Source: a virus
Strand: one strand, 5' to 3'
DNA length: 64,000 bases
Virus record (IMG/VR): IMGVR_UViG_3300032093_000068
Span: 1-64,000 of that record
Shown piece by piece: positions 34 to 14,481 of the stretch (the first letter of the stretch is position 1; each line of letters opens with the position of its first letter). The translations under genes and the position numbers were made by a program. Below the pieces are notes generated by a model. That model searched no databases. It was given only the letters and a program-made list of their open reading frames with translations, and had not been told where the DNA came from.

Positions 34-41
34 TAATTTTG
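34..41 (+). promoter_or_regulatory. Bacteroidota-type -7 promoter element TAnnTTTG upstream of the tRNA array
   Basis: TAATTTTG at 34-41 with TTTG about 20 nt upstream. The same motif occurs at 1337, 2242, 3341, 10656, 10744, 10874 and 16787 (+) and at 13080-13087, 37008-37015 and 38164-38171 (-). Confidence 0.7.
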
Positions 42-86
42 TGAAAGATTAATGATTGTTCATTGACATTGTGGGTATAATAAAAT

Positions 87-881: not shown

Positions 882-1000
882 GGTCAGGTGGCGGAATTGG
901 TTAGACGCTGCCGTGGGGCGACACCACTCTATAAAAACAGCATAAGCTCTCGCAATTAGGCGCCAGTTGCGAGGTGCAGGTTCGAGTCCTGTCCTGACTG
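882..1000 (+). ncRNA. tRNA-like RNA without a canonical anticodon arm
   Basis: Acceptor GGTCAGG/CCTGACT, Leu/Ser-type D-arm and T-arm GCAGG-TTCGAGT-CCTGT; the anticodon/variable region is replaced by about 65 nt containing two hairpins. Confidence 0.7.
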
Positions 1001-1427: not shown

Positions 1428-1436
1428 CATAAATAC

Positions 1437-1523
1437 GGAGGTGGTCCGAATGGACGAGGAAGCTATCTTGAAAATAGTTGGTCGGAGAAATCTGGCCTGG
1501 GGGTTCGATTCCCTTCTCCTCCG
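1437..1523 (+). tRNA. tRNA-Ser(TGA)
   Basis: GGAGGTG/CTCCTCC with G73; GCTAT-ctTGAaa-ATAGT; long variable arm. Confidence 0.9.
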
Positions 1524-1531
1524 CTAAATAT

Positions 1532-7538: not shown

Positions 7539-8149
7539 TAGATAATATAGTTGCAATAAAAGATTTACTAACTTTTGAATCTGAGGATGATTTTTATCAT
7601 CTTCAGATTTTGAAACGCAAAAAAGAAAATCCTGAGCTTGGATCAAATTCTTATGTGGTCAAAACATATTACATCAATTCAATAGAATATTTGGATTCAA
7701 AAATTGATGAAATTATTCATCTTTGTAATTTCCATAATGCGAGGGCTTGTATAAATCTTAATCGTAGGTCATATGAAAAAATCGCTTTTCATACCTTAAA
7801 AAAGGTTACTGATCAAATTATGAATAAGGATTTTAAATCGGTTAGAAAGGCTTACGAATCTATCTGCGGTTCATTTTCAAATGAAAAAGATAAAAAATGG
7901 ATTATTGATATTGACCATAAAGATTTTGATTTGAGCGAGGTTAAAAGACATGTATTTTACAATAATTTAATTTCAAACATCCAAAGTTTAATTTTTCAAA
8001 CCGGTAAAGATGATACTATAACCACAATTCCGACCAAAAATGGTTTTCACCTAATCACAAGACCTTTCAATTTAGAAGAATTTAGAAAAATGCACGGTGA
8101 AAAAATTGCGGTTCAAAAAGATAATCCCACCCTTTTGTATATGTCATAA
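7535..8149 (+). CDS. Hypothetical protein with archaeo-eukaryotic primase (AEP)-like motifs
   Basis: hhhDhD (WIIDID) and PTKNGFHLIT resemble AEP motifs I and II. Confidence 0.5.
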   Translation: MIDNIVAIKDLLTFESEDDFYHLQILKRKKENPELGSNSYVVKTYYINSIEYLDSKIDEIIHLCNFHNARACINLNRRSYEKIAFHTLKKVTDQIMNKDFKSVRKAYESICGSFSNEKDKKWIIDIDHKDFDLSEVKRHVFYNNLISNIQSLIFQTGKDDTITTIPTKNGFHLITRPFNLEEFRKMHGEKIAVQKDNPTLLYMS

Positions 8150-8169
8150 TTTTTTTGTAATTTAGCAAA

Positions 8170-9231
8170 ATGTTAGAAACCTTAGAGAAATATTATAACG
8201 AGGGATTACTTTATAAACAAGTACATCCAACTTTACCATTAACTATATGGAACTATAATGAAAAGGTTCAATATGAAAATCTGTGGGACGATATTACTCT
8301 AATGTGCCGTGGTTTGGTAACTGATGACAATGGGAATGTTGTTGCTCGCCCGTTTAAAAAATTTTTTAATCTTAGTGAACAAAAACACTCCGCAACCGAA
8401 AAGTTTGATGTGTATGATAAATTAGACGGCTCACTTGGTATTTTTTTCTATTATAACGGTGGTTGGATTATGGCAACTCGCGGATCATTTACTTCTGATC
8501 AAGCGGTTAAGGGGTATGAAATGATGTTTAAATATGATTTCGCGTCCTTACATAAGGATTATACTTATTTGTTTGAAATCATATACAAACAAAATAGAAT
8601 AGTGTGCCAATATGATTTTGAAGATGTCATTCTACTTGGTATGATAAACACCAAAACCGGTCAAGAAGTTGATTTATACTCAGACAATTATGACGTTAGA
8701 TTTTCTAATATGATAAAAAATTTGGGGTTCAAATTGGCCAAAAAATACGATGGAATCAAGGACTACAAAGAACTTAAATCTATGATAAAAGATAATGAGG
8801 AAGGTTTTGTTGTTAAGTTTTCTAACGGAGATAGAATAAAAATAAAAGGTGATGAATATTTGAGATTACATAAAATAATGACACAAATATCGACCACCTC
8901 AATATGGGAATGTCTTAAAAATGGAGATGATATAGAATCTTTACTTAAAGATGTTCCTGACGAATTTTATAAAAAAATAAAATTATATGTTGGAAATCTA
9001 AAATATCATCATTTTCAAATATCTGAATATTGTGGTAAAATGCACGATTATTTCAGATATGGAAAATATAATGATGTCGATCCTGAACCAACCAAATCTG
9101 AATTTGCAAAGTTCGTTCAAACTAATATTAATAAAAGAGAATTACATTCTGTAATGTTTGCAATGTGGGATAGAAAAGATTATAGTCAAATAATATGGAA
9201 ATTAATTAAACCAAAATATGAAAAACTTTAA
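8170..9231 (+). CDS. rnlA: T4 RnlA/Rnl1-type RNA ligase
   Basis: CRGLV, RPFKKFFN, KLDGSLG, ATRGSF, FEII, EGFVV, KIKGDEY. Confidence 0.88.
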   Translation: MLETLEKYYNEGLLYKQVHPTLPLTIWNYNEKVQYENLWDDITLMCRGLVTDDNGNVVARPFKKFFNLSEQKHSATEKFDVYDKLDGSLGIFFYYNGGWIMATRGSFTSDQAVKGYEMMFKYDFASLHKDYTYLFEIIYKQNRIVCQYDFEDVILLGMINTKTGQEVDLYSDNYDVRFSNMIKNLGFKLAKKYDGIKDYKELKSMIKDNEEGFVVKFSNGDRIKIKGDEYLRLHKIMTQISTTSIWECLKNGDDIESLLKDVPDEFYKKIKLYVGNLKYHHFQISEYCGKMHDYFRYGKYNDVDPEPTKSEFAKFVQTNINKRELHSVMFAMWDRKDYSQIIWKLIKPKYEKL

Positions 9232-9511: not shown

Positions 9512-10324
9512 TTTATCGTTTATTTTGAGTATTGTTTGTCTTTTTCTTTGTAATGTATGCCCATACGCGCCTTTACTTAAAAAATCATCAAAATGAAAAT
9601 CGTAGATATCATTTATAAAACATTTATCCCAAAAGTCTTCATCAATTGAGCCTACCTCCAAATGATTTGAATTATAATCCATATCAAGTGTAATTATTGC
9701 TGGATAATTTGTACTTAAAAAAGGTTGGTCTGAAATGTCTTTACCTTCCGACATATATTCTTCGGCAATAGTTAATAAATTTAAATCATAAGAAATATAG
9801 GAAGTTACAGTAATTTCGGGAACATTTACATCATCATCAATCGTTCCATCGCCTTTACAGGTATCACAATCATCTGAACCATTTCCGCCACATTCATCAC
9901 AAGATTCATGTCCAGAACCATCACAGTATTCACAATCTTCTTCACCTTCATCGCCTTCAATAGTCCCGTCACCACCGCATTGATTACAAGATTCATAACC
10001 TGACCCACCGCAATTACCGCAGTTTTCATATCCATTTCCATTACAGTCAGGACAATTTATCTCAGCAGGATACCTACCAAAACAAATTTTATCAATGACA
10101 TATAAATTATTATTTATAGACCAATCAACTGTTTTTCTATCAAGACCTCTTTTTATTGCGTCCAAATAAAAGGTCAATTTTAAATTTTGTTCTATTGATA
10201 ATTGGCCTGTCAATTGTTTGAAAGTATTATTCAATAATATATAACCATATATTTTATTTAATTTAAGATCATCTGGTAGTAGTCTTACTAATCTTTTAGC
10301 GACATTATATAAATCAATATTCAT
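9503..10324 (-). CDS. Protein with DnaJ-type zinc-finger repeats (6x CxxCxGxG) and no J-domain
   Basis: CPDCNGNG, CGNCGGSG, CNQCGGDG, CEYCDGSG, CDECGGNG, CDTCKGDG; no HPD motif; TATTTAT motif 5 nt upstream of ATG 10324. Confidence 0.75.
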   Translation of the reverse strand: MNIDLYNVAKRLVRLLPDDLKLNKIYGYILLNNTFKQLTGQLSIEQNLKLTFYLDAIKRGLDRKTVDWSINNNLYVIDKICFGRYPAEINCPDCNGNGYENCGNCGGSGYESCNQCGGDGTIEGDEGEEDCEYCDGSGHESCDECGGNGSDDCDTCKGDGTIDDDVNVPEITVTSYISYDLNLLTIAEEYMSEGKDISDQPFLSTNYPAIITLDMDYNSNHLEVGSIDEDFWDKCFINDIYDFHFDDFLSKGAYGHTLQRKRQTILKINDKLT

Positions 10325-10345
10325 ACAGATAAATACATTAAAAAA

Positions 10346-10378
10346 CAAAAAACCCCACTTATTAGGTGAGGTTTTAAA
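10346..10378. terminator. Putative intrinsic terminator (AAAACC(C/T)CA..TGAGGTTTT family)
   Basis: Hairpin with A and T tails; related copies at 12646-12678 and 14856-14892. Confidence 0.6.
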
Positions 10379-10394
10379 AATTCTAGATAAAAAA

Positions 10395-10562
10395 TTATTT
10401 AACCGAATCTTTTTTGATTACTGCTGATACAGTATCTACAATTGTGGTATCAACTTTAGAACTATCAACTGAAGTTGAGTCAGTTTGAGTGGTTTCACTT
10501 TGAGAACCACCGCAAGATGATAGTCCTACAACCACCACCAAAGAATAAATTAGTTTTTTCAT
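10395..10562 (-). CDS. Small lipoprotein (55 aa; not in the ORF track)
   Basis: MKKLIYSLVVVVGLSS|CGGSQSETTQTDSTSVDSSKVDTTIVDTVSAVIKKDSVK; lipobox LSSC. Confidence 0.75.
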   Translation of the reverse strand: MKKLIYSLVVVVGLSSCGGSQSETTQTDSTSVDSSKVDTTIVDTVSAVIKKDSVK

Positions 10563-10887
10563 ATATTAAGTTTGTTTATTTGTGAGTTTAATGATAATTA
10601 ACATTTTTTAACAAGTCAATATGATTTTTAAATTGATTTGTTTGCTTGAATTCACTAATTTTGTCAAACATTAGTTCTTTAAATGAAAAACAATTTCTCC
10701 AATTTTTTTTTAAAAATAATTTGGCAAATTAAAAAAGTTGTTTTATCTTTGTAAAAGATTTAGATGTCACCCCACCCTATCAGTTTTTAGGTTATTTAAT
10801 TTGAGTTCGATAGGGTGGGGGGAACGAGTGAAAAAAAAATTTAAAAAAAACTTGACAAGTGAAAAAAATTTCGTAACTTTGTCAAAC

Positions 10888-10973
10888 AATTCGAAAAGGA
10901 GGTCTGGTGTGAACCCGACTAAATAGTGTGAGGAAACTCACCATTTACGCGAGTCGGTAGCATGTTTCGAATT
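10888..10973 (+). ncRNA. Structured leader or small RNA downstream of promoter 10874
   Basis: AATTCGAAA/TTTCGAATT, CCGACT/AGTCGG, GTGAG-GAAA-CTCAC. Confidence 0.45.
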
Positions 10974-10987
10974 ATGTTCTTTAAAAT

Positions 10988-11862
10988 AATGGATTATCCA
11001 TCAAGTGAAAGTAGTCCTTCGGGATGATGATAACTTGTAAACGATAATGGGCTGTGTATAGTCCTTAAATAAACCACGAAAGTGGGATAAAGTGAATCCT
11101 CAAGTGTAAGGGGTTTGCGGTTTGAAATAACTTCGGTTGTTTTGAACTCGAGTACACAAACGGGATATCAATAAACCTGTAGTACCGAGGATAACTTCGT
11201 AGGGAAATGGATTATTGATGGGGCGATGTGGGTCGTCCTGTTGAGGTGGGAACACCAATAAGAATAACCCGTAGGGATTTTGTAAAAAATGTTATTATCC
11301 GATAATATTATTACGAGTTCCAATATGAAAGGATACTTAAAACCGAAGGGGCAACCTCAAAGGTATGATAAAGAACGAGTGGTGTCGCTATTATCCTTAA
11401 AGATGACTTACCAAAGTCTCTTTTTGAAGTAATCTTAAAATATGGAGGTGGGGACACTTCAAGGAGTAGTTTGATATTTGGTAATTCAAAAGATTACTAA
11501 GTCGGTGGCGGACCACTACTTCTATAATCCACAACACGTAACTTCGATTTAAAATTCAACTTTTAAAAAAGAGCAAAAGTGTCCGTCAGGTATTAGTGAA
11601 AGGTGACTACATAGTAATGAGCCGTTCATTGCCTCTGATAACCGCAAGTTTGATGAGATTTTTATGAAATACCTCTAATCTCGCAAGGATTAACTGGGGA
11701 GGCATTCTCGGGGAGAGTTGAGTAATAAAAGAGTAACTAGTACCTCAAGGAGTGGTTAGTCTAACTAACCGTCACTGGAAATTACCATTCAAAAGATGGT
11801 GGATACATAGGGAACCCATAATCCTATAAAAGATTTCCAATAAAACGTGTAATCTCAGCGTA
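10988..11862 (+). ncRNA. Large ornate ncRNA, about 870 nt, probably GOLLD-like
   Basis: No ORF, raised GC, many GNRA/UUCG-capped hairpins (GTCC-TTCG-GGAT, CCAC-GAAA-GTGG, TAAC-TTCG-GTTG, GGTG-GGAA-CACC, CGCAAG loops), long-range TGAGATT/AATCTCA pairing; size and adjacent tRNA fit GOLLD; family not confirmed. Confidence 0.6.
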
Positions 11863-11870
11863 AGCCATAT

Positions 11871-11945
11871 TGCGGGCGGGCAGGTCGGATCTGCGGGTGT
11901 CTCATAAGCACTCCATAAATTTGGTTCAACTCCAGAGCGACGCAA
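11871..11945 (+). tRNA. Atypical or degenerate tRNA-CAT (Met-like)
   Basis: GGTGT-ctCATaa-GCACT and T-arm TTTGG-TTCAACT-CCAGA; mismatched acceptor stem and odd D-arm. Confidence 0.55.
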
Positions 11946-11947
11946 CT

Positions 11948-12300
11948 AGTGACCCTTTTACGGTGGAATCGGATGAAGCCACCTAATTTTTAGGGAGAAA
12001 AAAAAACAAAAAAAATAATGTGTCCGGGGGTGTTTTGTTTAAGTTCTAGGTTCTTGTTATTAGTTTCATACCCCTGACCAATGTAAACCAAAAAAATAGA
12101 CCACCTTTTGTTAGTGTGTGCAGATGTGATAACCACACTTTTCGTTTGGGGTTCAGCAAAACGAAAAAAAGAAAGGTTAGCTACCTTTTTAACACATCCG
12201 TCGAGTGGTCGAACGTCTCGAGTTAATTACTCACTATAATTAAACTTGGGTTTATTGGAAACCCAACCACAAAACCAATAGCCAAATAAGGGTTGTCACT
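11948..12300 (+). ncRNA. Unassigned structured RNA, about 350 nt
   Basis: Closing AGTGACCCTT/AAGGGTTGTCACT; GGTGG/CCACC; TTTTCGTTTG/CAAAACGAAAA; AAAGGT/ACCTTT; TTGGGTTT/AAACCCAA; long-range GACCAC/GTGGTC and CGGATG/CATCCG. Confidence 0.55.
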
Positions 12301-12320
12301 TCGGTGATGACCCTTTTTTA
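12287..12320 (+). terminator. Intrinsic terminator ending the ncRNA operon
   Basis: AAGGGTTGTCAC-TTCG-GTGATGACCCTT followed by a T-tract. Confidence 0.8.
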
Positions 12321-12340
12321 TTTTCAGTATATTTATGTGT

Positions 12341-12646
12341 ATGAACCTACAAGAAAACATACAAAGGATAAGAGAAATGATGGGGATAAGTGAAGATTAT
12401 GATCCTTGGTTTAGAAGAAGATTTAATGAAGAAGAATTAGATTCTATCATGGATGACATTGAGGAATTGATAGAATATGGAGCTGATCCATATACCGCAA
12501 TGTATGATGCGGTGAGAGAATTTATCAAAAGTAAAAATTTTCCTGATATTGACGAACATGGTAATGAACAATCATATTGGGAATCGTATTTAAAATACGA
12601 AAAACCTTTAATTGATTATTTTACTAAACGAATATCTAATAATTAA
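12341..12646 (+). CDS. Hypothetical late protein
   Basis: MNLQENIQRIREMMG; TATTTAT at 12330. Confidence 0.7.
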   Translation: MNLQENIQRIREMMGISEDYDPWFRRRFNEEELDSIMDDIEELIEYGADPYTAMYDAVREFIKSKNFPDIDEHGNEQSYWESYLKYEKPLIDYFTKRISNN

Positions 12647-12680
12647 AAAACCCCACTCCGATAAGGAATGAGGTTTTAGT

Positions 12681-13051
12681 TGGTGGAGATGCGGGGTGCC
12701 GCCCCCCGGTCTTGTTCACTTTGATAATTAAGGACTACGTAAATAGTACAACATTATTTCTTAATGTTCCGAAATATTAGCTTTCTAACTCAGAAAACCA
12801 CAAACGAGTTTTGTTTCTTTTAGGATAGAAACCACACCCTACAAGTACTTCTGTTCCAAGGTTAAATGTACGCCGACCCGTTGTAGGTTTGCCTTAGGCT
12901 ACTGCTACTTTTTCAGAAGTACGAACAAGTCCTACAGCTGAAAGTTTGTTGATAACGTTTCCGTCTAATTGATAAGTCAGTTTTACAAGGTTAACTCAGC
13001 CTCGTTACGCCCCTAATTAGCAACCGTGCCAATCAATGCTATGTCATCCCC
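12681..13051 (-). ncRNA. ssrA: tmRNA (one-piece)
   Basis: 5' GGGGATG and 3' CATCTCC-ACCA with G3.U70 pair; tag ORF GNVINKLSAVGLVRTSEKVAVA-stop; promoter TATATTTG at 13080-13087 (-). Confidence 0.9.
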
Positions 13052-13137
13052 AATATTTTAAAGAACTTGTTTTCTTTTACAAATATACGTAAATTTTATG
13101 AAAAACCAAAAAAATATAATATTTATCAATAAAAAAT

Positions 13138-14481
13138 ATGACAAGTGAAGAACTAGATGAAGGAAGAAAAATTATTATTGAGACAGATCAATATATTTTT
13201 ATGGAAGTTCTAAATGAGAATGTTGCAAAATATTATGGAGGAAAGAATTACTCGGGTTATGATTGGTCGTCTAATTATAGAAACGGTAACTTATATTTTA
13301 TAATTAATAAAACTGATAATTTAGAATCTGTATCAGTTCATATTATAACAACTTCAAATGTTGAGGTTAAATTTATTTCGTCAGAAAAATCTTTATCGTT
13401 AGTTGAACTTTTTAAAAAATATCCAAATGTTGAGAAATTTATAATGGAACAGGTTGATCCTTTCAACATGGGTGCGTATTTCGCTCTAAAATCAATTGCG
13501 TCGGGTATTCCACCAAGAACTGATTGGACTATGGAACTTGCTGATGTTATGATTGGTAAATTTAAATATTTAGAAAAAAATCCAAGAAACTCTATTGTTA
13601 CATTGCAATTTAATGATTTGGATGATTATTTTAAAACTTTTGAAATGAGCGATGATTCACTATGGGTAATTAGAGTTGTTTTGGATAGTTATGGAAATGG
13701 TTTTGAGTTTACTGATAGTTCTGATGATTATTATTGGCAAGAAGGTATTTTTCTTACAAGTTATTTAAACGATTCTAATCAAGAAAAGATTAATGAAATT
13801 TTAAAATATATTTCACCAGGTTTAGAACTTAGCGAACATGATAGTGAGAATATTCCTATTGCCAAAATTTTTGATCAATTTTACCCTGAATTAGGTGATA
13901 CTATGAATTTTGAATATCATAATTTGGAAAATATATCAAGAAATGCTGCGGCAAGAAAAGAACTAAAAGAAGAATTTTGTGATATATATGAAAAATATAA
14001 TATTTTTAGAAAGTCATGTTATTATCAATATAATACTCCAGTATGGAATTTAATTAAATTATATGAAAATAATAATGCAAAAGATTTAAGTTTATATGAA
14101 TTAATTAAACTTGTAGGTCATAAATTTTCTGTTGGAGATTATTATGACGGTATATATGAAACTTATGGTGAAGAATTCGACGATGAATATTATCAAAGGG
14201 AAATTTCAAATGTTTTGGACAAAATCTTAGATAAGATAGAAGAAGACAGTGTTAATTTTCAAGAAATAATAAATTTATATGATGAAATATCAAAAAAATA
14301 TAAATTCAATAGATGGTATACTTTTCCAGCAGATCCAAATAAACAATTTTTAATAGATAAAATTGATATAGAAACAGGAAAATTGGTGGTTAATATGATT
14401 GGTAAAAATTTCCCATCAGGAAAAAGAAAAATGAGTTTAGAAGATTTTTATCAAACTATTCACAATCCATCATTATTCTAG
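13138..14481 (+). CDS. Hypothetical protein (447 aa)
   Basis: Long ORF; TATTTAT at 13120. Confidence 0.75.
   Translation: MTSEELDEGRKIIIETDQYIFMEVLNENVAKYYGGKNYSGYDWSSNYRNGNLYFIINKTDNLESVSVHIITTSNVEVKFISSEKSLSLVELFKKYPNVEKFIMEQVDPFNMGAYFALKSIASGIPPRTDWTMELADVMIGKFKYLEKNPRNSIVTLQFNDLDDYFKTFEMSDDSLWVIRVVLDSYGNGFEFTDSSDDYYWQEGIFLTSYLNDSNQEKINEILKYISPGLELSEHDSENIPIAKIFDQFYPELGDTMNFEYHNLENISRNAAARKELKEEFCDIYEKYNIFRKSCYYQYNTPVWNLIKLYENNNAKDLSLYELIKLVGHKFSVGDYYDGIYETYGEEFDDEYYQREISNVLDKILDKIEEDSVNFQEIINLYDEISKKYKFNRWYTFPADPNKQFLIDKIDIETGKLVVNMIGKNFPSGKRKMSLEDFYQTIHNPSLF

What the first reader, a model, noticed from the sequence alone, without database searches (positions are those of the whole stretch)
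10988..11862. Giant ornate ncRNA (about 870 nt, GOLLD-like) heading a dedicated RNA operon
Seen: an ORF-free, GC-elevated stretch packed with tetraloop hairpins and long-range complementarity (TGAGATT near 11654 with AATCTCA near 11851), followed directly by a tRNA-like gene. Established: GOLLD RNAs are about 800 nt, phage-associated, usually next to tRNAs, and of unknown function. Inference: a GOLLD variant or a new large RNA class from a Bacteroidota phage.
Basis: partly seen in the sequence, partly recalled or inferred. Interest (0 to 1): 0.72.

Follow-up and report, generated by a model that had tools for sequence, protein, structure and literature searches.

The report
GOLLD cage RNA in lake phage

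Summary
The stretch is a GOLLD RNA. Rfam RF02032 matches 11462-11861 end to end at 330.5 bits (cut-off 150). The 5' half (10993-11461) is the standard GOLLD 5' domain. The window forms 107 of its 108 consensus pairs, and 73 of those pairs show compensatory changes among 44 distinct relatives.

It sits in a tailed-phage fragment with a tRNA array, RNA ligases and a convergent tmRNA. It follows a conserved promoter, a leader hairpin and a boxA-like 11-mer. That exact 11-mer recurs in the window only in the tmRNA leader.

Directly downstream lie a non-canonical tRNA(CAU)-like gene, a conserved RNA of about 300 nt, and a strong terminator. Freshwater metatranscriptome contigs identical to the window cover the GOLLD interior and the downstream RNA.

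Two close relatives keep the whole unit but lack GOLLD at this site. A different long-range helix is.

Window-specific features are a 13-nt extension of one invariant GAAA hairpin and an enlarged leader hairpin.

This scan has already reported GOLLD loci and a GOLLD-less allele of this operon on other DNA (e1-5391251). Verdict: a new member of a known kind, of modest interest.

The parts
10852..10881 (+). Promoter-like element: TTGACA, 16 nt, TAACTTTG
   Evidence: Pattern match, 2 in the window against 0.42 expected. The same element lies upstream of GOLLD in most relatives. The region 10832-10890 is 83-86% identical in many loci. It is also conserved in the GOLLD-less relatives L100 and L094. 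No transcription start was measured.
10888..10975 (+). Leader hairpin of about 85 nt. Most relatives have a hairpin of about 16 nt at this position.
   Evidence: The MFE fold closes through UUCGAAA/UUUCGAA, -24.1 kcal/mol, z -1.9. Relatives carry a small hairpin here. The large form is conserved in L100 and L094.
10976..10986 (+). boxA-like leader motif GTTCTTTAAAA
   Evidence: Nearly invariant at the 5' edge of all 44 aligned GOLLD loci. The exact 11-mer occurs twice in 64 kb (0.32 expected); the other copy is in the tmRNA leader at 13056-13066. Similar motifs sit 3-4 nt before the tmRNA in 5 of 7 loci. The first 8 bases (GTTCTTTA) are kept in GOLLD-less L100, and the whole 11-mer lies just after the promoter in L094. 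Its likeness to rrn boxA is recalled, not tested.
10993..11461 (+). GOLLD 5' domain: 22 consensus helices
   Evidence: Its conserved motif at 11063 was found in 90 IMG/VR contigs. Every locus with enough downstream sequence has a GOLLD 3' domain 373-427 nt after that motif. Of 108 pairs, 97.6% of cells pair and 73 pairs show compensatory change, against 39.1 in shuffles and 19-25 in slid controls. The window forms 107 of 108.
11346..11358 (+). Window-specific 13-nt insertion that lengthens the otherwise invariant CCGAAAGG hairpin (11342-11364)
   Evidence: Only the window row has letters in alignment columns 461-473; 0 of 43 relatives do. The insertion is present, with no differences, in contigs of three RNA runs and one DNA run. 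Equating this hairpin with P11a/L11a of the env-38 structure is inference from topology.
11462..11861 (+). GOLLD 3' domain
   Evidence: Rfam RF02032: 330.5 bits against a cut-off of 150, E 5.9e-94, model positions 1-416 of 416. The window forms 85 of 86 consensus pairs.
11524..11581 (+). Variable A/U-rich linker inside the 3' domain; it holds no tRNA here
   Evidence: Poorly aligned and of variable length among the 44 relatives. No tRNA was called there.
11602..11607 (+). 5' arm (GGUGAC) of a conserved long-range pseudoknot helix
   Evidence: Pairs with 11771-11776. 99.2% of cells pair, 4 of 6 pairs show compensatory changes, and slid controls pair in 16-60% of cells.
11771..11776 (+). 3' arm (GUCACU) of the same long-range helix
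   Evidence: the paired variants are listed.
11679..11689 (+). Hairpin whose loop carries the self-complementary GC dinucleotide. It fits the L21a symmetric kissing loop described in print.
   Evidence: The loop reads GC(AA) in 36 of 44 sequences including the window and CG(AA) in 8 of 44; none is non-palindromic. Kretsch et al. describe this GC/CG switch for bridge B8 (passages).
11868..11945 (+). Non-canonical tRNA(CAU)-like gene
   Evidence: ARAGORN calls it tRNA-Met(cat) only at a relaxed threshold. The MFE is a cloverleaf. There is no Rfam tRNA hit at E<=10. A pattern search found 14 viral contigs; aligned with the window that makes 15 sequences, of which ARAGORN default. The anticodon stem pairs 5/5 in 15/15 with 8 different stem sequences, the T stem pairs 5/5 in 13/15, and the acceptor is GCG:CGC, a 1x2 internal loop, then a covarying 2-bp helix.
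11962..11992 (+). Hairpin GGUGG...CCACC followed by a U run (weak terminator-like)
   Evidence: Fold -13 kcal/mol, z -2.1. Not picked up by the terminator scan. Conserved in L100 and L094.
11995..12287 (+). Downstream structured RNA of about 300 nt, family unassigned
   Evidence: No Rfam match. 86% mean column identity with L100 and L094. Contigs with no differences at 11978/11998-12283/12292 in three metatranscriptome runs.
12288..12321 (+). Intrinsic terminator that closes the non-coding unit
   Evidence: 12-bp stem, UUCG loop and a U run; z -3.2; nearly invariant (one stem base varies) in L100 and L094.
12681..13051 (-). Convergent phage tmRNA. Its leader motif is at 13056-13066 and a TATATTTG element at 13080-13087.
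   Evidence: Rfam RF00023: 73.5 bits against a cut-off of 47, full length. Tag frame GNVINKLSAVGLVRTSEKVAVA. Leader sequence. A tmRNA convergent with GOLLD occurs in 6 of 11 other loci.

Best explanation
The stretch 10993-11861 (+) is a complete gene for a GOLLD RNA, the known giant phage RNA.

Shown here:
- It has the family's conserved 3' domain and the common 5' domain.
- Nearly every consensus helix is intact.
- Identical sequence is present in freshwater RNA libraries.

Inferred:
- It is transcribed from the conserved promoter at 10852-10881, through a leader hairpin and a boxA-like motif. Such a motif may make the polymerase resist termination, as in rRNA operons (my odds about 0.5).
- Transcription would then continue through a non-canonical tRNA(CAU)-like gene and a roughly 300-nt RNA to the terminator at 12288-12321. 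RNase P/Z cuts at the tRNA-like element would release the pieces (odds about 0.4).
- By homology with the solved env-38 GOLLD, the RNA should self-assemble without protein into a closed two-shell cage. The 5' domains would form the caps and the 3' domains the rings. A 14-mer is likely, because the peripheral hairpins that the 12-mer form lacks are present here.

What the cage does is unknown in print. My best guess (odds about 0.25) is an optional helper of phage translation under host attack on tRNAs. The reasons are its position among a tRNA array, RNA-repair ligases, an odd tRNA and a tmRNA, and the fact that close relatives do without it.
For: Identity:
- Rfam GOLLD matches at 330.5 bits over the full model.
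- The 5'-domain motif occurs in 90 viral contigs. Of 93 sequences examined, 72 have the 3' domain 373-427 nt after it. The 21 without a hit hold 463 nt or less after the motif.
- RNAalifold on 44 distinct sequences gives 197 pairs, 136 of them with compensatory change.
- 5'-domain controls are. The window forms 107/108 and 85/86 consensus pairs.
- A pseudoknot helix covaries.
- The L21a-like loop keeps a palindromic GC.

Expression: RNA-run contigs with no differences cover 11069-11269 and 11241-11626. In the same three RNA runs, no contig was laid over the flanking ORF bins that a DNA run covers.

Transcription unit: promoter, leader and boxA-like motif are conserved. Terminator.

Context: terminase, portal, major head protein and Rnl1; 14 tRNAs.

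Cage assembly, tRNA-island context and ribosome pull-down come from Kretsch et al. 2025 (passages) and from PMC12990946 (passages).
Against:
- Contigs cannot show strand, ends or level, and part of the depth comes from related phages.
- No measured 5' or 3' end exists, and nothing shows co-transcription with the tRNA-like gene.
- The relatives were fished with a 5'-domain motif, so they are one GOLLD subtype by construction.
- L100 and L094 lack GOLLD at the same site, so it is dispensable at least in some phages.
- The boxA reading rests on a recalled consensus.
- The exact motif count is small: 2 found against 0.32 expected, and 3 of 100 shuffles reach 2.
Confidence: 0.9

Rival explanations
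1. A new class of large structured RNA that only resembles GOLLD.
For: The Rfam model covers only the 3' half (416 positions), so the 5' half has no catalogue match of its own.
Against: The 3' half is a full-length match at twice the cut-off. The 5' half aligns helix for helix with 43 other RNAs, each carrying a GOLLD 3' domain. All 11 sampled relatives score 277-328 bits.
Confidence: 0.01
2. A decaying, non-functional GOLLD remnant, on its way to the loss seen in L100 and L094.
For: Close relatives lack GOLLD at this site. The window carries a unique 13-nt insertion in an otherwise invariant hairpin.
Against: 107 of 108 and 85 of 86 consensus pairs are intact. The insertion extends the hairpin rather than breaking it. 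Identical sequence is found in RNA libraries.
Confidence: 0.03
3. GOLLD acts in cells mainly as a monomeric scaffold or precursor, for example as a carrier that controls release of the downstream tRNA-like RNA. On this view the cage is an in-vitro property.
For: A tRNA(CAU) or its odd variant lies 10-24 nt after GOLLD in 11 of 59 loci and in the window. The review PMC12990946 mentions 'inhibited storage' of tRNAs embedded in GOLLD (passages).
Against: Most loci have a terminator directly after GOLLD and no tRNA. Published mass photometry keeps the 14-mer at 12.5-50 nM (Kretsch passages). The palindromic kissing-loop dinucleotide is conserved.
Confidence: 0.06
4. The stretch hides a small protein gene or a self-splicing intron.
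For: Frames of 46-57 aa overlap it on both strands.
Against: There is no frame of 60 aa or more. No intron or other family reaches its threshold. The substitution pattern preserves base pairs, not codons.
Confidence: 0.01

Closest known systems
GOLLD RNA, env-38 type (Rfam RF02032; cryo-EM 14-mer, Kretsch et al. 2025, PMC12286853, passages read)
   Same: Full-length 3' domain match. A 5' domain of about 470 nt with a stem that encloses three hairpins. Two hairpins in the L21a/b region, with a palindromic GC. A variable internal linker. Phage-encoded, from lake water, beside tRNA genes. About 870 nt, against 833 nt.
   Different: A 13-nt extension of one invariant GAAA hairpin. An enlarged leader hairpin upstream. 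Followed by a non-canonical rather than an ordinary tRNA-Met. Oligomer state was not measured.
Streptococcus agalactiae GOLLD (12-mer; as summarised in PMC12990946, passages read)
   Same: Same family and same 3' domain.
   Different: That RNA is reported to lack P9, P11a-c and P21b. The window has counterparts of the three P11 hairpins and of both P21-region hairpins, so it is closer to env-38.
Mycobacterial GOLLD inside tRNA arrays (PMC6582537, passages read)
   Same: GOLLD set among horizontally moving tRNA genes, with a pseudo-tRNA associated with it.
   Different: There the tRNA or pseudo-tRNA lies inside the GOLLD linker. Here the linker is empty and the odd tRNA follows the 3' end.
ROOL and OLE RNAs
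   Same: Large ornate RNAs. ROOL is also phage-borne, lies near tRNAs and forms cages.
   Different: No Rfam match at the family cut-offs in the window, or at E<=1 in 10400-13300. Not members.
rRNA-operon boxA antitermination leaders (E. coli consensus recalled; PMC4807359 passages read, with no sequence seen)
   Same: A short U-rich single-stranded motif soon after the promoter of stable-RNA transcripts, preceded by a hairpin.
   Different: NusB/NusE binding is untested. The host is unknown. The likeness rests on a recalled consensus.
tRNA-Sec and allo-tRNAs (PMC5389517, abstract in search listing only; tRNA-Sec shape recalled)
   Same: The tRNA-like gene has a long D stem (5-6 bp) with a 3-4 nt loop, and an acceptor helix eight layers long.
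   Different: Anticodon CAU, a short variable region, and an internal loop in the acceptor stem. No evidence that it is charged.

Membership tests
GOLLD RNA (RF02032) | Conserved 3' domain scoring above the curated covariance-model cut-off | tested here: met
   330.5 bits against 150, model positions 1-416 of 416, at 11462-11861.
GOLLD RNA (RF02032) | A separate, less conserved 5' domain of about 400 nt joined to the 3' domain | tested here: met
   22 helices and 108 pairs. 97.6% of cells pair and 73 pairs show compensatory change. The window forms 107 of 108. The relatives were selected by a 5' motif, so they are one subtype.
GOLLD RNA (RF02032) | Length around or above 800 nt | tested here: met
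   10993-11861 is 869 nt.
GOLLD RNA (RF02032) | Encoded by phages or prophages, near tRNA genes | tested here: met
   Terminase, portal and major head protein are in the window. 14 tRNAs lie at 87-2110. A tRNA-like gene follows at 11868-11945.
GOLLD RNA (RF02032) | Variable linker inside the 3' domain | tested here: met
   11524-11581 is A/U-rich and unalignable among the 44 relatives.
GOLLD RNA (RF02032) | Self-complementary dinucleotide (GC or CG) in the L21a loop, used for a symmetric inter-subunit kissing contact | tested here: met
   GC in 36 of 44 sequences including the window, CG in 8 of 44, none otherwise. The published description was read. Assigning this hairpin to L21a is by position.
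GOLLD RNA (RF02032) | RNA-only homo-oligomeric cage | not testable with these tools
   No RNA 3D or assembly tool is available. Inferred from homology only.
GOLLD RNA (RF02032) | Expressed as RNA, reported to rise during phage lysis | tested here: inconclusive
   Identical contigs occur in three freshwater metatranscriptome runs, over GOLLD but not over the flanking ORF bins. Contigs give no strand, ends, level or timing.
ROOL / OLE / group I or II introns | Match to the Rfam covariance model | tested here: not met
   No such hit at the family cut-offs in the window, or at E<=1 in 10400-13300.
Canonical tRNA (RF00005), for 11868-11945 | Covariance-model or ARAGORN default detection, and a regular 7-bp acceptor stem | tested here: not met
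   No Rfam tRNA hit at E<=10. ARAGORN default finds none. The acceptor carries a 1x2 internal loop.
tRNA-like fold, for 11868-11945 | D, anticodon and T arms kept by compensatory change | tested here: met
   15 sequences. The anticodon stem pairs 5/5 in all, with 8 stem variants. The T stem pairs 5/5 in 13. The inner acceptor pairs covary. The D arm was fixed by the search pattern, so it is not an independent test.
boxA antitermination element, for 10976-10986 | Binding of NusB/NusE and read-through of terminators | not testable with these tools
   Only position and recurrence were tested: 2 exact copies, both in stable-RNA leaders, and 5 of 7 tmRNA leaders.

The most novel reading that the evidence does not exclude
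GOLLD is an optional cargo of a conserved phage stable-RNA operon that may be equipped for antitermination. The operon reads: promoter, hairpin, boxA-like motif, [GOLLD], odd tRNA(CAU)-like RNA, roughly 300-nt RNA. It converges on a phage tmRNA. Closely related phage contigs carry this operon with or without GOLLD. On this reading the cage is an accessory counter-defence or translation-rescue device that works together with the non-canonical tRNA-like RNA. It might hold it, or decoy host nucleases that attack initiator or elongator tRNA-Met. The window's lengthened GAAA hairpin, if it is L11a, would narrow the pore at each pole of the cage.
Probability: 0.15. Interest if true: 0.75.

Novelty: new member of a known kind. 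Interest (0 to 1): 0.33.

Why it matters
GOLLD has a solved and striking structure but no known function. This locus adds no new class, but it offers four handles for testing function:
- natural alleles of one operon with and without GOLLD in related phage contigs (the window's DNA is found in lake and freshwater samples);
- a shared leader motif that links GOLLD and tmRNA transcription;
- a tRNA(CAU)-like neighbour that standard tRNA finders miss;
- a natural variant of the one conserved loop reported to face the cage's pore.

Each can be tested with ordinary in-vitro assembly, processing and binding assays.

Tried and rejected

- I considered a 5'-3' closing helix between the GTTCTTTGA leader and UCAAGGAG in the 3' domain. 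RNAalifold with ribosum scoring proposed it. The five sequences with a changed leader base show no compensating change in the alignment, so I dropped it.

- At first I read the GTTCTTT motif as the 5' edge of GOLLD, and its presence in L100 as a deletion scar. The direction of the indel (gain or loss of GOLLD) is unresolved.

- TANNTTTG is not enriched (115 found, 112.5 expected). With one mismatch the boxA-like pattern is at chance (19 found, 18.7 expected). Neither count supports a host call or a regulon.

- ARAGORN finds no tmRNA in the window and only one in the loci (a script that stopped with an error after printing). Rfam was used instead.

- Host: the ClpB-like protein gives only a weak lean towards Bacteroidales.

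- Read laying: no RNA contig was laid on 10912-11025 or on 11824-11937. Depths were not used to rank anything. The DNA joint 11861>12676 has a 21-letter side and was ignored.

- Sequence search of phage records found only two huge uncultured phages (LR745206.1, LR756502.1; 73% identity) and short hits in Acinetobacter phages.

- Literature:
  - 'GOLLD'+'tmRNA' gave 6 papers. I read passages of one (PMC6582537), and it does not address GOLLD-tmRNA synteny. The other five I saw only as listing titles and abstracts, and none is about that synteny.
  - 'GOLLD'+'huge phages' gave 1 irrelevant paper.
  - 'allo-tRNA'+'phage' gave 8 papers, seen as listing only.
  - No boxA consensus sequence was found in the passages read.
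  - These searches cover only the held library.

- Supplementary files of Kretsch et al. (alignments, construct sequences) were closed. They would settle which hairpin is L11a.

- Weinberg et al. 2009 and Al-Shayeb et al. 2020 were not seen. Anything attributed to them is recalled or second-hand.
Full report
**Observation.** The stretch is as described.
- No ORF of 60 aa or more lies between 10563 and 12334.
- G+C rises to 0.38-0.43, against 0.22-0.30 in the flanks.
- The sequence is packed with short hairpins capped by GNRA and UUCG loops.

**Identity.** A scan of the whole window against Rfam 15 gives one dominant hit. GOLLD (RF02032) matches 11462-11861 on the + strand at 330.5 bits, against a gathering score of 150, with E 5.9e-94 over model positions 1-416 of 416 (repeated). 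The Rfam model describes only the conserved 3' domain. No ROOL, OLE or intron model reaches its cut-off in the window, or E<=1 in 10400-13300.

**The 5' half.**
- A motif from the 5' half (at 11063) was found by exact pattern in 90 IMG/VR viral contigs.
- An nhmmer search with the window's 3' domain hit 72 of the 93 sequences examined, always 373-427 nt after the motif. The 21 without a hit hold 463 nt or less after the motif.
- All 11 loci that I also gave to Rfam score 277-328 bits for GOLLD.
- From 59 full-length loci I kept 44 distinct sequences. L003 was left out because my 5' anchor was not found in it, and duplicates were merged. These were aligned.
- RNAalifold predicts 197 pairs, 136 of them with at least one compensatory change.
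- For the 5' domain alone there are 108 pairs in 22 helices. 97.6% of cells pair, against 87.1% in shuffles. 73 pairs show change on both sides, against 39.1 in shuffles (0 of 500 reach it) and 19-25 when partners are slid.
- The window forms 107 of 108 of these pairs, and 85 of 86 in the 3' domain.

Two caveats apply. The relatives were retrieved with a 5'-domain motif, so they represent one GOLLD subtype. The structure was derived from the same alignment on which it was counted.

**Long-range pairings.** There is no compensatory change, and pairing (52.3%) is no better than in shuffles (53.7%). Part of the left arm sits in a local covarying helix. A different long-range helix is well supported: 11602-11607 with 11771-11776. 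It pairs in 99.2% of cells, and 4 of 6 pairs show compensatory change. It crosses another helix, so it is a pseudoknot.

**Features that bear on assembly.** Passages of Kretsch et al. 2025 and of a 2026 review say the following.
- GOLLD env-38 forms a D7 14-mer cage. The 5' domains form the caps and the 3' domains the rings.
- A symmetric kissing contact at L21a covaries between GC and CG.
- L11a (GAAA) is the only conserved loop that makes no contact, and it faces the inner circle.
- The 12-mer GOLLD of S. agalactiae lacks P9, P11a-c and P21b.

In my alignment the hairpin at 11679-11689 has GC in 36 of 44 sequences, including the window, and CG in 8. One stem (11323-11338 with 11427-11443) encloses three hairpins. 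The first of them has an invariant GAAA loop in 43 of 44 sequences. The window alone has 13 extra bases there (11346-11358), which lengthen the hairpin. The insertion is present in DNA and RNA contigs with no differences. That this hairpin is P11a/L11a is my inference from topology. I could not open the paper's supplements to check.

**Transcription unit.** Upstream of most relatives lies the same promoter-like element (TTGACA, 16-17 nt, TAAnTTTG). It is followed by a small hairpin and then a nearly invariant GTTCTTTGAAA.

The window has the promoter at 10852-10881, a hairpin enlarged to about 85 nt, and GTTCTTTAAAA at 10976-10986. The exact 11-mer occurs only twice in 64 kb (0.32 expected). 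The second copy lies 4 nt before the 5' end of the convergent tmRNA. Similar motifs precede the tmRNA in 5 of 7 loci.

That fits its position and recurrence. The consensus is recalled, and binding is untested.

Downstream, most relatives have an intrinsic terminator within a few tens of bases of the GOLLD 3' end. 11 of 59 loci have a tRNA-Met(CAT) 10-24 nt after it. In the window the strong terminator is at 12288-12315. A weaker hairpin with a U run lies at 11962-11992.

**The tRNA-like gene.** The stretch 11868-11945 is not called by ARAGORN at default settings, or by the Rfam tRNA model at E<=10. At a relaxed threshold ARAGORN draws a tRNA-Met(cat) with a flawed acceptor stem, and the MFE is a cloverleaf.

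A pattern from its D and anticodon arms found 14 viral contigs; with the window that makes 15 sequences, of which ARAGORN default. Across these 15:
- the anticodon stem always pairs, with eight different stem sequences;
- the loop is CUCAUAA;
- the T stem pairs fully in 13;
- the acceptor is built as GCG:CGC (13 of 15), a 1x2 internal loop, and a 2-bp helix that covaries as GC:GC, GU:AC, AU:AU and GA:UU.

So it is a selected, structured RNA and not a decayed copy. Its long D stem and tiny D loop recall tRNA-Sec, which is a recalled comparison. Many copies sit in tRNA arrays directly after ordinary tRNAs.

**GOLLD-less relatives.** L100 (a 58.8-kb contig) and L094 (40.8 kb) match the window at 78-88% identity across the following:
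- the upstream hairpin RNA;
- the promoter and the leader hairpin;
- the tRNA-like gene;
- the roughly 300-nt downstream RNA and the terminator;
- and, in L100, the tmRNA.

Both contigs jump from the leader to the tRNA-like gene without GOLLD. No GOLLD is found anywhere in the held parts of their records, which are fragments estimated at 20% and 14% complete.

This agrees with an earlier report of this scan on other DNA (e1-5391251, 'GOLLD-less allele'). I cannot tell whether GOLLD was gained or lost. The junctions share short similar words, as expected for an indel between short repeats (compared by eye).

**Expression.** Sampled words of 10700-12400 occur in runs of 24 studies, mostly labelled freshwater or lake water (some 'fungus metagenome'), six of them metatranscriptomes.

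I laid three RNA runs from three studies and one DNA run on 10000-13400. Contigs with no differences from the RNA runs cover 11069-11269, 11241-11626 and 11978/11998-12283/12292. The DNA run has depth in all 30 bins. The RNA runs have none over the ORF-bearing bins 10000-10683, 12394-12735 and 13078-13400.

I read this as presence of GOLLD and of the downstream RNA in RNA pools. It says nothing about strand, ends or amounts.

**Context.**
- The record is an 85.5-kb viral fragment estimated at 28% complete.
- It carries large terminase, portal, major head protein, a ClpB-like ATPase and an Rnl1-type RNA ligase.
- 14 tRNAs lie at 87-2110.
- A tmRNA lies at 12681-13051 on the opposite strand, with a plausible tag frame.
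- A tmRNA convergent with GOLLD is present in 6 of 11 diverse related loci.
- The host is not established.

**Mechanism.**
- Shown: family membership, intact structure, and presence in RNA libraries.
- Inferred from the solved homologue: assembly into a protein-free cage, probably a 14-mer.
- Inferred from layout: one leader-driven non-coding unit, whose parts could be separated by tRNA-processing enzymes.
- Speculative: a helper role for phage translation under attack. This rests on its neighbours and on its optional presence.

**Novelty and score.** This is a new member of a known kind. The family, its phage and tRNA context, and its cage are all in print. This scan has also met GOLLD loci many times. 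The points that may be new are the small structural variant, the odd tRNA-like family, the shared leader motif and the synteny with tmRNA. For GOLLD-tmRNA synteny, and for GOLLD in huge phages, my searches of the held library found nothing. The tRNA-like family got only one related search (allo-tRNA with phage), and I ran no literature search for the shared leader motif or the structural variant. Interest is 0.33.

Noticed in passing
window 11995-12320 (+): A non-coding RNA of about 300 nt lies between the tRNA-like gene and the strong terminator. It has no Rfam match. Mean column identity with L100 and L094 is 86%. Identical contigs in three metatranscriptome runs end at the terminator stem.
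   Followed up: partly
window 11868-11945; L047:7939-8017; L094-L106: A recurrent family of tRNA(CAU)-like genes that ARAGORN default misses in 13 of 15 (Rfam tRNA gave no hit in the two checked, the window and L047). They have an acceptor stem broken by a 1x2 internal loop, and a 5-6 bp D stem with a 3-4 nt loop. Most copies sit in phage tRNA arrays.
   Followed up: partly
window 12681-13051 (-), leader to 13087: Phage tmRNA (73.5 bits) that ARAGORN does not call. Its tag frame is GNVINKLSAVGLVRTSEKVAVA. A tmRNA convergent with GOLLD occurs in 6 of 11 related loci.
   Followed up: partly
window 10721-10830 (+): A second promoter-like copy (TTGGCA, 17 nt, TATCTTTG) is followed by a very stable 12-bp GC-rich hairpin (z -4.8) and an A run. 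It is conserved in L100 and L094. It may be a small RNA gene.
   Followed up: no
window 10656-10684 (+) and 34-68 (+): Two more pairs of a TAATTTTG element with a boxA-like motif (GTTCTTTAAAT, GTTCATTGACA). The second lies just before the tRNA array.
   Followed up: no
L006:8253-8474 and L047:6002-6189: Group I intron matches (96.2 and 61.3 bits) in related phage loci. The one in L006 overlaps the 3' end of the tmRNA hit at 7880-8277.
   Followed up: no
L002 (LR745206.1, 635 kb), L003 (LR756502.1, 642 kb), L005: Huge uncultured phages carry the same GOLLD subtype. A tRNA-shaped gene follows it at once; it has a long insertion in the D-loop region or an unreadable anticodon.
   Followed up: no
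L094:170-316: In one GOLLD-less relative, a different stretch of about 150 nt sits between the promoter and the leader hairpin. It begins with the boxA-like motif.
   Followed up: no
window 882-1000 (+) and 1436-1524 (+): The tRNA finders disagree. Rfam gives a weak, 119-nt-long tRNA hit at 882-1000 that ARAGORN omits. ARAGORN calls a tRNA-Ser at 1436-1524 that is absent from the Rfam list.
   Followed up: no
upstream of GOLLD in L017, L044, L092, L033 (listing): Some relatives replace the usual promoter and small hairpin with a different structured element that holds repeated GTTGTAAAGATTCC-like words.
   Followed up: no
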